DNA from: Actinomycetota bacterium
GTDB taxonomy: Bacteria > Actinomycetota > Acidimicrobiia > Acidimicrobiales > AC-14
Direction: 5' to 3'
Length of the DNA stretch: 53,542 bases
NCBI GenBank assembly: GCA_005888325.1
Contig: VAWU01000030.1
Span: forward strand, 80,349-133,890
Part shown: piece after piece, positions 48,424 to 49,222 of the stretch
Numbering within the stretch: the first letter of the stretch is position 1
Layout: each line of letters opens with the position of its first letter
The notes under the pieces: model-generated
The model's database searches: none
What the model saw: only the letters and a program-made list of their open reading frames with translations
Told to the model about the DNA's origin: nothing
Program-made: the position numbers and the translations under genes

Positions 48424-48483
48424 TACATCCGTTCTGTCGCCGTGGACACAGACCCCGCCCGCCCCGGTCCGCATGATGAGCCC
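48424..48483 (+). promoter_or_regulatory. leader copy A: palindrome TCTGTC-gccgtg-GACACA centred ~42.5 nt upstream of the peptide ATG, then CATGATGAGCCC-ATG
   Basis: A ~75-nt direct repeat with copy B (48879-48955) has identical spacing between palindrome and ATG. It extends into the first codons. Confidence 0.55.
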
Positions 48484-48627
48484 ATGTTCACAACCGAAGA
48501 GATCGACACCTTCCCGCACGACGGTCCGACGGACTCGCTGATCAGATTGGCGAGCATCTCGTTCGCGCTGGCCACGCTGATCACGTTCGCCTGGATCGCC
48601 TTGGGCGTCCTGCTAGTCGGCTTCTGA
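48484..48627 (+). CDS. 47-aa peptide: a hydrophilic N-terminus plus one C-terminal TM helix
   Basis: MFTTEEIDTFPHDGPTDSLIRLASISFALATLITFAWIALGVLLVGF. Third codon positions are ~85% G/C. It follows leader copy A. Confidence 0.5.
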   Translation: MFTTEEIDTFPHDGPTDSLIRLASISFALATLITFAWIALGVLLVGF

Positions 48628-48638
48628 GCCCGGTCGGA

Positions 48639-48776
48639 ATGGTCGAACATCGCCATCCGCCTCCTCGACAGAGCGCCGGTCCGAGTGAGGAGAGCGCCAT
48701 CAAGACGATCTTCGCGGTCATGCTGCTCTGCATGGTCTTGGCGTGCGTTGCCGCGGTCGTCCTTCCGCTTCGGTGA
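48639..48776 (+). CDS. 45-aa peptide: a hydrophilic N-terminus plus one C-terminal TM helix
   Basis: MVEHRHPPPRQSAGPSEESAIKTIFAVMLLCMVLACVAAVVLPLR. The start lies 11 nt after the stop of the preceding peptide gene. The ORF is shorter than the ORF-track cutoff. Confidence 0.4.
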   Translation: MVEHRHPPPRQSAGPSEESAIKTIFAVMLLCMVLACVAAVVLPLR

Positions 48777-48878
48777 CAGCGGCTTGAGTCATCGACTATC
48801 ACGCAGTTCGGCCATCTCGGTCTTCCTACTGCTTGAACGTCGCGCATCAGTGAAATCACGAGTTTCCGGTAGTCGGCG

Positions 48879-48940
48879 TTTCCATCCGCTGTGTCGCCGA
48901 GGACACAGACCGGGCTCGTCGCAGTACCCATGATGGGCCC
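48879..48940 (+). promoter_or_regulatory. leader copy B: perfect 7-6-7 palindrome CTGTGTC-gccgag-GACACAG (48889-48908) centred ~42.5 nt upstream of the LuxR-type gene ATG, then CATGATGGGCCC-ATG
   Basis: A direct repeat of copy A, with the same palindrome-to-ATG spacing. Confidence 0.55.
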
Positions 48941-49222
48941 ATGGACATTCGAAGCATCGACGGCTCTCGCCGCCACGTCTCCCTCGAGGCCATGCCCGCC
49001 CTCGGAGAGGTGCTGACGCCCGGGGAGCTGCGCGTCGCATTGCTCGTGGCGGAGGGAGCCACCAACAACGAGGTCGCAGCATCGCTGTTCCTCAGTCGCA
49101 GGACGGTGGAGTCCCATCTCCTTTGCGTCTACCGCAAGCTGGGCATCAGATCCCGCTCCCAGCTTGCTCGCCTCGTTGCCATCGCGGCACGGGACCCATC
49201 CGAGGCCCGAGCAGTCGTCTGA
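48941..49222 (+). CDS. LuxR/GerE-type HTH protein (stand-alone, 93 aa)
   Basis: LTPGELRVALLVAEGATNNEVAASLFLSRRTVESHLLCVYRKLGI matches the GerE HTH signature. Confidence 0.7.
   Translation: MDIRSIDGSRRHVSLEAMPALGEVLTPGELRVALLVAEGATNNEVAASLFLSRRTVESHLLCVYRKLGIRSRSQLARLVAIAARDPSEARAVV

What the first reader, a model, noticed from the sequence alone, without database searches (positions are those of the whole stretch)
48424..48955. Duplicated ~75-nt leader with a GTGTC-N6-GACAC palindrome at -42.5, in front of both the peptide genes and the LuxR-ABC operon
Copy A (48424-48504) and copy B (48879-48955) align with no gaps. Both have the palindrome (a perfect 7-6-7 in B, 6-6-6 with one mismatch in A) and a 17-nt spacer, and both end in CATGATG(A/G)GCCC followed by the ATG. 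They share even the first codons. The two start codons lack Shine-Dalgarno sequences, and leaderless mRNAs are common in Actinobacteria. If transcription starts at the A of the ATG, CATGAT sits at the -10 position and the palindrome centre at about -42.5. That is the class II activation position used by CRP-family dimers. A Crp/Fnr gene and several cNMP proteins lie within 4 kb. The half-sites are not the canonical TGTGA/TCACA.
Basis: partly seen in the sequence, partly recalled or inferred. Interest (0 to 1): 0.7.

Follow-up and report, generated by a model that had tools for sequence, protein, structure and literature searches.

The report
Duplicated leaderless promoter with conserved operator
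Two copies of one small promoter, each carrying a conserved palindromic protein-binding site just upstream of a start codon with no leader, drive two membrane-peptide genes and a LuxR-type regulator/ABC-transporter operon in an uncultured actinobacterium. The site most likely belongs to the operon's own small LuxR-type regulator rather than to the nearby cAMP-receptor protein, so this is a well-supported but fairly ordinary regulatory element.

Summary
48416-48486 and 48873-48943 are a gap-free 71-nt repeat (79% identical). Each copy has a 20-bp dyad, then CAGACC, a 17-nt spacer, CATGAT, 6 nt and ATG, with no Shine-Dalgarno sequence.

Eight diverged copies of this promoter (window plus metagenomic relatives, peptide down to 50% identity) show no indel from -75 to +3. 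CAGACC and ATG are invariant. The -10 is 92% identical and becomes GATAAT in one relative. The dyad is 81% identical, the spacers only about 58%. This is the footprint of a leaderless sigma-A-type promoter with an operator centred at -42.5.

The duplication arose from an ancestral promoter-pep1-luxR(-pep2) unit. Copy B keeps the first ~16 codons of pep1 fused to luxR, which explains the "shared first codons".

Two more operators exist: 43315-43332, upstream of the 1518-aa PD40 protein gene, and 51922-51939, upstream of a cNMP-binding gene and conserved in a relative.

The dyad travels with the pep1/GerE-type regulator module. It is absent from ABC-cNMP loci that lack that module and from loci around two Crp orthologues, and it is not a CRP consensus. 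The best reading is autoregulation by the stand-alone GerE/LuxR-type protein, lux-box-like. The CRP reading is possible but less likely. This is a new member of a known kind, of moderate interest.

The parts
48403..48510 (+). Repeat copy A: promoter plus 5' end of pep1
   Evidence: The ungapped core is 48416-48486. An nhmmer profile built only from six non-window relatives hits 48422-48486 with E=5e-18.
48845..48965 (+). Repeat copy B: promoter plus a relic of the pep1 5' end, now the 5' end of luxR
   Evidence: The ungapped core is 48873-48943. The nhmmer profile gives E=1.7e-16. Copy B carries a 15-nt insertion relative to A at about 48858-48872.
48432..48451 (.). Operator dyad A, TTCTGTC-GCCGTG-GACACAG, centre -42.5
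   Evidence: (11/12 match).
48889..48908 (.). Operator dyad B, CTGTGTC-GCCGAG-GACACAG, perfect 7-6-7, centre -42.5
   Evidence: 12/12 match.
48449..48454 (+). -35-like hexamer CAGACC of copy A. Copy B has the same hexamer at 48906-48911.
   Evidence: Invariant in 8 of 8 promoters, 17 nt upstream of the -10.
48472..48477 (+). -10 hexamer CATGAT of copy A. Copy B has the same hexamer at 48929-48934.
   Evidence: 92% identity across 8 promoters. L013 has GATAAT, keeping A2 and T6. Always 6 nt before the ATG. The TANNNT -10 lies 7-12 bp upstream of the TSS in M. tuberculosis (PMC3898074).
48422..48430 (+). Upstream conserved block TTTACATCC (consensus TTaCAyCC, about -63..-55). Copy B has it at 48879-48887. 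Function unknown; possibly a third half-site.
   Evidence: Alignments.
48484..48627 (+). pep1, 47 aa, polar N-terminus plus one C-terminal hydrophobic helix. Predicted leaderless.
   Evidence: Homologues at 50-98% identity, always the first gene after the promoter. No Pfam or NCBIfam match.
48639..48776 (+). pep2, 45 aa, C-terminal hydrophobic helix
   Evidence: A homologue lies downstream of luxR in L007 and L011.
48941..49222 (+). Stand-alone GerE/LuxR-type HTH protein, 93 aa. Predicted leaderless. Residues 1-16 are a relic of pep1. Met17 is the start codon in L007 and L011.
   Evidence: Pfam GerE, E=1e-15. Alignment. PDB relatives are ComA-C, EL222, VraR and GerE.
49253..51294 (+). MacB/FtsX-type permease (49253-50299) and ABC ATPase fused to a cNMP-binding domain (50296-51294), in the luxR operon
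   Evidence: GGGGAGG Shine-Dalgarno before 49253.
51291..51893 (+). P-loop protein (similar to the DNA topology modulation protein family), last gene of the operon
   Evidence: Still follows pep2 in L007 and L011, where the ABC genes are deleted.
51922..51939 (.). Operator site D, CGTGTC-GCCACC-GACACG, in the 127-nt gap before the 157-aa cNMP-binding gene (52021-52494)
   Evidence: Exact GTGTC-N6-GACAC. The same position after the P-loop gene in L007 has TGTGTCGCCGCCGACACA (12/12) inside diverged, gapped flanks. L018 has TGTGTC.
43315..43332 (.). Operator site C, TGTGTC-CTCGCC-GACAGA (reverse complement TCTGTCGGCGAGGACACA), in the divergent gap between the cNMP-patatin gene (41353-43044, -) and the PD40 gene
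   Evidence: 11/12 match. nhmmer dyad-only profile gives E=0.0019 and is the third-best hit after A and B; the next hit has E>4.
43329..43357 (+). Core promoter at site C: CAGACA, 17 nt, CATGCT. Same hexamers and spacing as A and B, but the dyad sits 2 bp closer.
   Evidence: Read. The ATG at 43414 has the Shine-Dalgarno AAGAGGGG, so this transcript is leadered.
43414..47970 (+). 1518-aa secreted PD40/PKD-repeat protein, a probable regulon member
   Evidence: Pfam. A PD40 paralogue is divergently adjacent to the promoter in L006 and in the P0038 contig.
52498..53151 (-). Crp/Fnr-family protein, the rival candidate binder
   Evidence: Pfam cNMP_binding plus HTH_Crp_2. Recognition helix RPTANR.

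Best explanation
The repeat is two copies of one sigma-A-type promoter that produces leaderless mRNAs.

Each copy has a weak but invariant -35 (CAGACC), a 17-nt spacer, a -10 (CATGAT) and, 6 nt later, the ATG at which transcription and translation both start. An 18-20-bp inverted repeat, T(G/C)TGTC-N6-G(A/G)CACA, is centred at -42.5 and overlaps the first two bases of the -35. It is the operator for a dimeric helix-turn-helix protein.

The most likely binder is the 93-aa stand-alone GerE/LuxR-type protein encoded right behind copy B. The circuit would then be autoregulatory. I lean towards activation of the lux-box/class II type. Auto-repression by occlusion of the -35 is nearly as plausible.

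The same operator also sits upstream of the large PD40 surface protein gene (site C) and upstream of a cNMP-binding protein gene (site D). One regulator would therefore co-ordinate four units: the two tail-anchored membrane peptides, the regulator/ABC-cNMP exporter operon, the PD40 protein and the cNMP protein.

The duplication arose from an ancestral promoter-pep1-luxR(-pep2) unit. Copy A kept pep1 and pep2 and lost luxR. Copy B lost the body of pep1 (about 120 nt) and pep2, which left the first ~16 pep1 codons fused to luxR.

Shown: the repeat, the geometry, the phylogenetic footprint, the extra sites, the deletion history and the co-occurrence with the GerE gene.

Inferred: the transcription start, which protein binds, and the sign of regulation.

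Sub-confidences: promoter with operator about 0.85; leaderless start about 0.75; GerE-type protein as the binder about 0.5. The overall figure of 0.5 is that of the weakest link.
For: Geometry and footprint. Eight promoters (winA, winB, L006, L015, L007, L011, L013, L014; pep1 down to 50-52% identity) align from -75 to +3 with no indel. Mean pairwise identity: -35 CAGACC 100%, ATG 100%, -10 92% (GATAAT in L013), dyad 81%, -35/-10 spacer 58%, -6..-1 58%.

Leaderless start. Neither first gene has a Shine-Dalgarno sequence, while the internal permease gene has GGGGAGG. The -10 ends 6 nt before the ATG. C at -1, A at +1 and T at +2 match the mycobacterial TSS context, and 26% of genes with a primary TSS in M. 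tuberculosis are leaderless (PMC3898074).

Operator. Symmetric invariant positions are T2/A19, T4/A17 and G5/C16, with C7/G14 nearly so. The motif is over-represented in the window. Site C has profile E=0.0019. Site D is conserved at the orthologous position in L007 within diverged flanks.

GerE as binder. The dyad-bearing promoter was found at every pep1/GerE locus for which DNA was available (L006-L008, L011-L015, the window and its near-identical relatives L016-L023). The gene list of the 6.6-kb P0038 contig, the same locus type as L013, shows PD40(-), pep1 and GerE with no ABC, cNMP or Crp Pfam hit. No dyad at 10 or more of 12 matches occurs in L001-L004 (the ABC-cNMP operon at 58% permease identity, without GerE). 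None occurs in 41 kb around Crp orthologues at 72% and 67% identity. A 20-bp dyad centred at -42.5 is exactly the LuxR lux-box arrangement (PMC3376562).

Duplication history. The alignment shows winB and L006 equal P-pep1-luxR minus about 120 nt. L015 (P-pep1-pep2, then an unrelated gene) breaks exactly at the left edge of copy B.
Against: No transcription start data and no binding data exist.

The GerE assignment rests on co-occurrence in a small, fairly closely related set of metagenomic contigs, most under 3 kb. A trans-acting factor cannot be excluded.

In L015 the promoter-pep1-pep2 unit has no luxR directly downstream.

All four sites in the window lie inside an island with four cNMP-domain proteins (Crp among them) and a cyclase, which fits cAMP control.

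The dyad is imperfect in most copies. The left arm is TCTGTC in 5 of 8 and the right arm is GGCACA in L007 and L011.

Site C has the dyad 2 bp closer to the -10. This is awkward for a strict class II activator and fits a repressor better.

Site D has no recognisable -10 at the canonical distance.
Confidence: 0.5

Rival explanations
1. The dyad is a class II site for the Crp/Fnr-family protein encoded at 52498-53151. cAMP made by the adjacent cyclase switches on both promoters and the other sites of the cNMP island.
For: Crp, a cyclase and three further cNMP-domain proteins lie within 12 kb. All four dyads are inside this island. Site D is directly upstream of the cNMP gene that is convergent with crp. 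The dyad contains TGTGT...ACACA, which reads as CRP-like half-sites with an 8-bp rather than a 6-bp spacer. A centre at -42.5 is within 1 bp of the classical -41.5.
Against: The recognition helix is RPTANR rather than RETVNK as in GlxR and Mtb CRP, and this is conserved in orthologues. Position 5 of a CRP-type half-site (G, read by the retained Arg in E. coli CRP; textbook knowledge) is variable here (G/C). Crp orthologues are very common (1831 hits at E<=1e-20), whereas pep1 has only 9 homologues. Two orthologue loci (41 kb) have different neighbours and no dyad. The P0038 locus has the promoter module but no cNMP or Crp domain in 6.6 kb. ABC-cNMP/cyclase loci without GerE have no dyad.
Confidence: 0.2
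2. The same operator and promoter, but bound by another unlinked regulator, or by two regulators together. For example, GerE could bind the dyad and a second factor could bind the conserved TTaCAyCC block at about -60.
For: The conserved block extends to about -70, longer than one dimer site. The ACAY of the upstream block lies 21 bp from the ACAC of the right arm, on the same face of the helix.
Against: No other regulator gene is consistently linked. The upstream block is less conserved (55% over -75..-53).
Confidence: 0.15
3. The conserved region is a transcribed 5' leader (an RNA hairpin, attenuator or riboswitch) downstream of a more distal promoter.
For: The dyad could form a 7-bp hairpin in RNA. 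The A->G change in L007 and L011 would keep a U-G pair.
Against: No Rfam family matches at E<=1 apart from a spurious plant miRNA hit elsewhere. Folding z-scores are +0.51 and -1.52, and the two copies give different structures. Most copies have a C-C mismatch in the stem and there is no compensatory change. There is no Shine-Dalgarno sequence for a leadered mRNA. The hexamer 6 nt before the ATG behaves like a -10 (CATGAT/GATAAT).
Confidence: 0.03
4. The repeat is a recombination or mobile-element end, and the palindrome is a recombinase site rather than a transcription signal.
For: Rearrangement breakpoints in relatives coincide with the repeat edges (L015, L006, and the L023 scaffold).
Against: No transposase or integrase lies nearby and there are no target-site duplications. 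The breakpoints are explained by homologous recombination or deletion between promoter copies. The fixed distance to the ATG and to the -10 has no meaning for a recombination site.
Confidence: 0.03
5. The repeat is coding sequence: an N-terminal extension of pep1 from GTG 48442. Some database entries call it this way (61-aa P0035, 71-aa P0039, 77-aa P0033).
For: An in-frame GTG at 48442 gives a 61-aa ORF, and gene callers have produced such models.
Against: The extension is not conserved as protein (MDTDPARPGPHDEP vs ...QDTDHRGVRLDNRF). Conservation is in nucleotide blocks, not in a codon pattern. In copy B the same DNA precedes a different gene in a different frame. The ATG is invariant and protein conservation starts there.
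Confidence: 0.02

Closest known systems
lux box / LuxR-TraR-type class II activation
   Same: A 20-bp inverted repeat centred at -42.5, overlapping a weak -35. It would be bound by a dimer with a LuxR/GerE-family HTH that is encoded in the regulated locus (PMC3376562; geometry).
   Different: The regulator here has no autoinducer-binding or receiver domain: 93 aa, GerE domain only. The sequence differs from the lux box: the CTG/CAG blocks are not at lux-box spacing. The transcript is leaderless. The host is an actinobacterium. Binding and the sign of regulation are untested.
Stand-alone GerE-type regulators (B. subtilis GerE, 74 aa; cyanobacterial PedR)
   Same: A protein that is essentially only the LuxR-type HTH domain. 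PDB 1fse GerE and ComA-C are among the best sequence matches. There is a sub-threshold hit to NCBIfam PedR (33.6 bits against a cut-off of 120). From general knowledge, such proteins act as dimers at sites overlapping -35 and can activate or repress.
   Different: It is not a member of the PedR equivalog, being below the cut-off. It is co-encoded and probably translationally coupled with a tail-anchored 47-aa membrane peptide, which is not a feature of GerE or PedR.
CRP/GlxR class II sites (TGTGA-N6-TCACA at -41.5)
   Same: A dimer-type dyad overlapping -35. A Crp-family gene lies 3.5 kb away, and its closest solved relatives are GlxR and Mtb CRP.
   Different: The half-site sequence or spacing differs (TGTGT-N8-ACACA or TGTC-N6-GACA). 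The recognition helix lacks the Glu (RPTANR). The dyad does not accompany Crp orthologues.
Actinobacterial leaderless promoters (M. tuberculosis TSS maps)
   Same: An nAnnnT -10 ending 6 nt before an A/G start that is also the start codon. No Shine-Dalgarno sequence. C at -1 and T at +2 (PMC3898074).
   Different: A strictly conserved -35-like CAGACC plus an operator. M. tuberculosis promoters show no -35 consensus. The TSS here is not mapped.
ComA tripartite site (an inverted repeat plus a third half-site). Recalled from memory (Griffith and Grossman 2008), not checked here.
   Same: ComA-C is the top solved relative of the regulator. The promoter has a third ACAY element 21 bp upstream of the right arm.
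   Different: A lead only. The sequences are unrelated (ComA: TTGCGG-N4-CCGCAA), and the third element here is upstream of the dyad.
Mycobacterial FtsX-type ABC transporters with a cNMP-binding ATPase (Rv0072/Rv0073, Rv2563/Rv2564). Recalled from memory, not checked here.
   Same: A MacB/FtsX permease plus an ATPase with a C-terminal cNMP domain.
   Different: These concern the cargo genes, not the promoter. No LuxR/peptide module is known to me at those loci.

Membership tests
Leaderless sigma-A (sigma-70-type) promoter of Actinobacteria | -10 hexamer of type TANNNT/nAnnnT located 7-12 bp upstream of the TSS | tested here: met
   CATGAT (GATAAT in L013) at -12..-7 relative to the ATG. A2 and T6 are invariant in 8 of 8. 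Criterion taken from PMC3898074.
Leaderless sigma-A (sigma-70-type) promoter of Actinobacteria | Transcription starts at, or within a few nt of, the start codon | not testable with these tools
   Only inferred from the fixed 6-nt distance between the -10 and the ATG. Needs 5'-end mapping.
Leaderless sigma-A (sigma-70-type) promoter of Actinobacteria | No Shine-Dalgarno sequence before the start codon | tested here: met
   GAGCCC, GGGCCC, GAAGCC and CGGTTC precede the ATG. They are not conserved and contain no GGAGG, whereas the internal permease gene has GGGGAGG.
Leaderless sigma-A (sigma-70-type) promoter of Actinobacteria | -35 element at 16-18 nt from the -10 | tested here: inconclusive
   CAGACC is invariant at 17 nt but matches TTGACA at only 3 of 6 positions. 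The generic scanner finds no sigma-70 consensus promoter.
lux-box-type operator of a LuxR/GerE-family regulator | 18-20-bp inverted repeat | tested here: met
   7-6-7 perfect in B, 6-6-6 perfect in L013, and symmetric invariant positions across 8 copies.
lux-box-type operator of a LuxR/GerE-family regulator | Centre at about -42.5, overlapping -35 | tested here: met
   Arithmetic, conditional on +1 being the A of the ATG.
lux-box-type operator of a LuxR/GerE-family regulator | A LuxR-family HTH protein encoded at the locus and co-occurring with the operator | tested here: met
   A GerE-domain gene lies directly downstream in the window, L006, L007, L008, L011, L012, L013 and L014. L015 is the exception.
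lux-box-type operator of a LuxR/GerE-family regulator | The regulator binds the dyad and changes transcription | not testable with these tools
   Needs EMSA, footprinting or reporter assays.
Quorum-sensing LuxR (autoinducer-binding) regulators | N-terminal autoinducer-binding domain | tested here: not met
   93 aa with only PF00196 GerE at residues 24-78. The protein is not filed as a QS LuxR.
CRP/FNR class II site | Half-sites TGTGA-N6-TCACA (or TTGAT-N4-ATCAA) | tested here: not met
   The dyad is T(G/C)TGTC-N6-G(A/G)CACA. The only 9/10 match to the CRP consensus in the window is at 28803, which is unrelated.
CRP/FNR class II site | A Crp-family protein with the canonical R-E-x-x-x-R recognition helix | tested here: not met
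   RPTANR against RETVNK of GlxR. RPT[AV]NR in orthologues.
CRP/FNR class II site | The motif accompanies the regulator in other genomes | tested here: not met
   0 hits at 10 or more of 12 matches in 41 kb around two orthologues. This is a small sample and a local test only.
Known RNA leader or riboswitch (Rfam) | Match to a curated covariance model, or significant conserved structure | tested here: not met
   No relevant hit at E<=1. Folding z-scores of +0.51 and -1.52.

The most novel reading that the evidence does not exclude
pep1 and the GerE-type protein may form a minimal membrane-to-DNA signalling pair. The core unit, conserved down to 50% peptide identity, is promoter-pep1-GerE, with a 3-4-nt gap between the two genes in L013 and L014 that suggests translational coupling. 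It lies divergent from a PD40 surface protein gene. pep1 is a tail-anchored peptide with an acidic cytoplasmic N-terminus. The regulator is little more than a sigma-region-4-like HTH. pep1 could hold or release the regulator at the membrane, in the manner of an anti-sigma factor. This would give a leaderless, self-amplifying switch that in this genome has been wired to a cAMP-gated MacB-type exporter and other cNMP proteins.
Probability: 0.15. Interest if true: 0.6.

Novelty: new member of a known kind. Interest (0 to 1): 0.38.

Why it matters
The finding gives a clean, comparatively validated example of a leaderless, operator-controlled promoter in uncultured Acidimicrobiia-like actinobacteria, where almost no regulatory sites are known.

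It defines a small candidate regulon: two membrane peptides that gene callers miss, a stand-alone LuxR-type regulator, a cNMP-gated MacB-type ABC transporter, a giant PD40 surface protein and a cNMP-binding protein.

It also shows how a tandemly duplicated operon was split into two co-regulated halves by complementary deletions.

It corrects the tempting CRP assignment. It provides a precise 20-mer and two candidate proteins for a direct binding test. The biological function of the module remains unknown.

Tried and rejected
1. Permease-based locus search in genome contigs. It returned four Acidimicrobiia/Actinomycetota MAG loci with the ABC-cNMP operon but no LuxR, peptides or dyad. These were useful only as a negative control.

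2. Both metagenome-contig scans found nothing: the pep1 alignment and the architecture pattern TGTC-N6-GNCACAG-N20-CATGATG-N5-ATG. That collection evidently lacks the relevant contigs.

3. LuxR homologues P0013 and P0020 proved not to be orthologous. One sits at a contig end next to OsmC. The other is the C-terminus of a large AAA-LuxR protein.

Only their gene lists could be used.

5. The RNA-element reading was rejected.

6. The generic sigma-70 and terminator scanner found nothing. The promoter does not fit the E. coli consensus.

7. I looked for co-variation between the GerE recognition helix (TVES/A/T-HL-L/M/G/D) and half-site changes. No clear pattern emerged with so few sequences.

8. 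I looked for a mirrored promoter on the minus strand that would serve the divergent PD40 gene in L013 and L006, and at site D. None was recognisable.

9. A literature search for TGTGTC/GACACA palindromes returned nothing relevant.

10. PADLOC gave only domain-level hits to the HTH and cNMP domains. NCBIfam has no family for pep1 or pep2.
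Full report
OBSERVATION. The repeat is real. The repeat finder reports 48416-48486 and 48873-48943 as a 71-nt ungapped direct repeat of 79% identity, 457 nt apart. Every other repeat family in the same 1.1 kb is 23 nt or shorter.

A gapped alignment extends the homology in both directions. Upstream it continues (CATCAtTGAgATC vs CATCAgTGAaATC) across a 15-nt indel. 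Downstream it runs about 25-40 nt past the ATG with small indels.

Read, copy B is CTGTGTC-GCCGAG-GACACAG (48889-48908, a perfect 7-6-7), then ACC, a 17-nt spacer, CATGAT (48929-48934), GGGCCC and ATG (48941). Copy A is TTCTGTC-GCCGTG-GACACAG (48432-48451), ACC, 17 nt, CATGAT (48472-48477), GAGCCC and ATG (48484). With +1 at the A of the ATG, the dyad centre is at -42.5 in both copies.

The motif is over-represented in the window. GTGTC-N6-GACAC with up to 1 mismatch occurs 10 times against 3.55 expected, and 0 of 100 shuffles reach 10. The 18-mer TGTGTC-N6-GACACA at 11 or more of 12 matches occurs 3 times against 0.116 expected, and 0 of 500 shuffles reach 3.

RELATIVES. The permease led only to four Acidimicrobiia/Actinomycetota MAG loci (58% identity). 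These have the ABC-cNMP operon, and in L001 a cyclase, but no LuxR gene, no peptides and no dyad.

Homologues of the LuxR protein and of pep1 led to the informative loci:
- L006 (LuxR 87%): a divergent PD40 protein gene, then one promoter copy (CTCTGTCGCCGAGGACACAG ... CATGAT GAGCCC ATG), then luxR-permease. No peptide genes.
- L007, L008, L011 and L012 (LuxR about 75%): one promoter (TCTGTCG[C/G]CG[A/T]GGGCACAG ... CATGAT GAAGCC ATG), then pep1-luxR-pep2. Ten codons of the permease follow, then directly the P-loop gene, with the ABC genes deleted.
- L013 and L014 (pep1 52% and 50%): TTGTGTC-GTCCAG-GACACAG ACC, 17 nt, GATAAT, CGGTTC, ATG; and TTGTGTC-ATCCAG-CACACAG ACC, 17 nt, CATGAT, CGGTTC, ATG. 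In each, pep1 follows and the GerE gene starts 3-4 nt after the pep1 stop.
- The 6.6-kb contig carrying the L013-type pep1 (gene list only) reads PD40 (615 aa, minus strand), pep1, GerE. It has no ABC, cNMP or Crp Pfam hit anywhere.
- L015 (pep1 98%): the end of the PD40 gene, the promoter, pep1-pep2, then an unrelated minus-strand gene. The break is exactly at the left edge of what is copy B in the window.

FOOTPRINT. The eight promoters align from -75 to +3 without a single indel. Mean pairwise identity by segment:
- -35 hexamer CAGACC: 100%
- ATG: 100%
- -10: 92%. The one change, CATGAT to GATAAT, keeps A2 and T6.
- 20-bp dyad: 81% (73% between the window clade and L013/L014)
- -35/-10 spacer: 58% (43%)
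- -6..-1: 58% (31%)
- codons 2-4: 46%

Within the dyad the invariant positions are T2, T4, G5, T6, C7 on the left and C16, A17, C18, A19, G20 on the right. T2/A19, T4/A17 and G5/C16 are symmetric pairs, and C7/G14 is nearly so.

This pattern is what a promoter with a dimer operator leaves behind. It is not what a coding extension or an RNA leader leaves. No Rfam family matches. RNA folding of the two copies is not better than shuffles (z = +0.51 and -1.52) and gives different structures. The in-frame GTG extension that some gene callers use (P0035, P0039, P0033) is not conserved as protein.

The geometry is that of mapped mycobacterial leaderless promoters: an nAnnnT ending 6 nt before an A that is also the first base of the start codon, C at -1, T at +2, and no Shine-Dalgarno sequence. 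In those promoters TANNNT lies 7-12 bp upstream of the TSS, and 26% of genes with a primary TSS are leaderless (PMC3898074). The internal permease gene, by contrast, has GGGGAGG. The transcription start itself is inferred, not shown.

ORIGIN OF THE DUPLICATION. I aligned P-pep1-luxR of L007 and L011 with copy B-luxR of the window and L006. Copy B equals the ancestral unit minus about 120 nt, from about codon 17 of pep1 to the luxR start.

The first 16 residues of the window's LuxR protein (MDIRSIDGSRRHVSLEA) are therefore a frame-altered relic of the pep1 5' end. Its Met17 (MPALGEVLTPGEL) is the start codon of the L007 and L011 proteins (MLVLEEMLTPGEL). This explains the 'shared first codons'.

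Copy A is the reciprocal product: pep1 followed 11 nt later by pep2, with luxR gone.

The simplest history is tandem duplication of P-pep1-luxR-pep2 followed by complementary deletions. The L023 scaffold, which joins the two arrangements across an N gap, suggests that both arrangements coexist in the sampled populations.

FURTHER OPERATORS. Site C (43315-43332, TGTGTCCTCGCCGACAGA) has the reverse complement TCTGTCGGCGAGGACACA, one base from the family consensus including its spacer. It lies in the 369-nt divergent gap between a cNMP-patatin gene (41353-43044, minus strand) and the 1518-aa PD40/PKD protein gene.

A profile built only from the six non-window promoters finds A (E=5e-18), B (E=2e-16) and then C. 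C scores E=0.014 with the whole-promoter profile and E=0.0019 with the dyad-only profile. The next hits have E>0.7 and E>4.

On the plus strand C is followed by CAGACA, 17 nt, CATGCT. These are the family's own -35 and -10 at the right spacing, but the dyad sits 2 bp closer. The PD40 ATG at 43414 has a good Shine-Dalgarno sequence, so that transcript is leadered.

Site D (51922-51939) is an exact GTGTC-N6-GACAC in the 127-nt gap before the 157-aa cNMP-binding gene. At the same place after the P-loop gene, L007 has TGTGTCGCCGCCGACACA (12/12) within flanks that have diverged and need gaps to align, and L018 has TGTGTC. D has no recognisable -10 at the canonical distance.

PD40 genes are also the divergent neighbours of the promoter in L006 and in the P0038 contig. 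A broken remnant of such a paralogue lies at about 47880-48290 in the window.

WHO BINDS. Nothing here is a binding experiment. The argument is by association and geometry.

For the GerE/LuxR-type protein:
- The dyad-bearing promoter is present at every pep1/GerE locus for which DNA was available. The gene list of the P0038 contig, the same locus type as L013, shows no cAMP-related domain in its 6.6 kb.
- It is absent from ABC-cNMP loci that lack the GerE gene.
- It is absent from 41 kb around two orthologues (72% and 67%) of the Crp protein, which sit in unrelated neighbourhoods.
- The Crp orthologue family is very large (1831 hits at E<=1e-20), whereas pep1 has nine homologues. The motif's distribution follows the rare module.
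- A 20-bp dyad centred at -42.5 is the lux-box arrangement (PMC3376562).

Against Crp:
- The dyad is not TGTGA-N6-TCACA.
- The local Crp has RPTANR where its closest solved relatives, GlxR and Mtb CRP, have RETVNK. This is conserved in orthologues.
- The position that the retained Arg would read is variable (textbook CRP-DNA contacts; inference).

For Crp:
- All four sites lie in an island with four cNMP-domain proteins (Crp among them) and a cyclase.
- The dyad can be read as TGTGT-N8-ACACA.

My estimates are about 0.5 for GerE, 0.2 for Crp and 0.15 for another or a second factor. A less conserved TTaCAyCC block at about -63..-55, 21 bp from the right arm, suggests that more than one dimer site may be involved.

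The sign of regulation is open. The weak -35 and the exact -42.5 position favour class II-type activation. The 2-bp shift at site C and the overlap with the -35 fit a repressor equally well.

COMPARISON AND NOVELTY. The element works like a lux-box/LuxR promoter and like the sites of stand-alone GerE-type regulators. It is not a quorum-sensing LuxR system, since it has no ligand domain. It is not a PedR equivalog, since it scores below the cut-off. It is not a canonical CRP site.

It is a new member of a known kind: an autoregulated, operator-controlled promoter. Three features are uncommon. The transcript is leaderless. The promoter has been duplicated together with the start of its first gene. 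Its conserved partner is a tail-anchored 47-aa peptide that public gene calls mostly miss.

The most novel reading the data allow is that pep1 is a membrane anchor or anti-activator for the sigma-region-4-like regulator (probability about 0.15).

WHAT LED NOWHERE. Both metagenome scans found nothing. Two LuxR homologues were non-orthologous. The generic promoter scanner, the literature search for the motif, PADLOC and a search for helix/half-site co-variation all gave nothing useful.

Noticed in passing
window 47880-48290 (minus strand): A broken remnant of a second PD40-type protein gene, convergent with the intact 1518-aa gene. It keeps a signal-peptide start (ATGATCCTCGCC...), runs into a stop after about 11 codons, then continues in another frame with a C-terminal segment (GTYTITFPMPSAAAPGETYKVVPHAP...) that resembles the C-terminus of the intact protein. 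The intact counterpart, over 660 aa and 46% identical to the window's PD40 protein, sits divergent from the promoter in L006.
   Followed up: partly
window 41353-53542: A dense cyclic-nucleotide island. It contains cNMP-patatin (41353-43044, -), ABC ATPase-cNMP (50296-51294), a 157-aa cNMP protein (52021-52494), Crp/Fnr (52498-53151, -) and the 3' part of a 609-aa cyclase-like gene (from 53162, -; complete in L017). That is four cNMP-binding domains plus a cyclase in 12 kb.
   Followed up: partly
window 48423-48656 (minus strand), and L016-L023: Public gene calls for this locus omit pep1 and pep2. They annotate instead a 75-aa ORF on the opposite strand, which is very probably spurious. Where pep1 is called, it is often extended upstream through the promoter (61, 71 or 77 aa).
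   Followed up: yes
L007 1737-1830; L011 about 1000-1100: In these relatives the permease and ATPase-cNMP genes are deleted. Only about 10 codons of the permease remain (ATGTGGAACATCACCCTGCGGAACATC...), and pep2 is followed by the P-loop gene. The ABC transporter is therefore dispensable for the pep1/GerE module.
   Followed up: partly
window 48422-48430 and 48879-48887: A conserved block TT(A/C)CA(C/T)CC at about -63..-55 in all eight promoters. Its ACAY lies 21 bp upstream of the ACAC of the right operator arm. It may be a third half-site or an UP-like element.
   Followed up: no
window 51942-51962: Immediately after site D comes CGCTCTGTCGTGGCCGTGACGG. It repeats the left arm (TCTGTCG) of the operator but has no matching right arm. 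It is not significant in the profile scan (E=29).
   Followed up: no
L023 about 1870-2070: A scaffold with an N-gap joins the end of the pep2 region to an L006-like sequence (PD40 paralogue start plus promoter B). This suggests strain heterogeneity, or mis-scaffolding across the promoter repeat.
   Followed up: no
L001 5824-7665; L001-L004: The ABC-cNMP operon without LuxR or peptides is conserved at about 58-75% identity in several Acidimicrobiia/Actinomycetota MAGs. In L001 it is followed on the same strand by a 613-aa protein with a C-terminal cyclase-like domain. The cAMP-gated exporter is therefore the older, wider module onto which the pep1/GerE promoter was grafted.
   Followed up: partly
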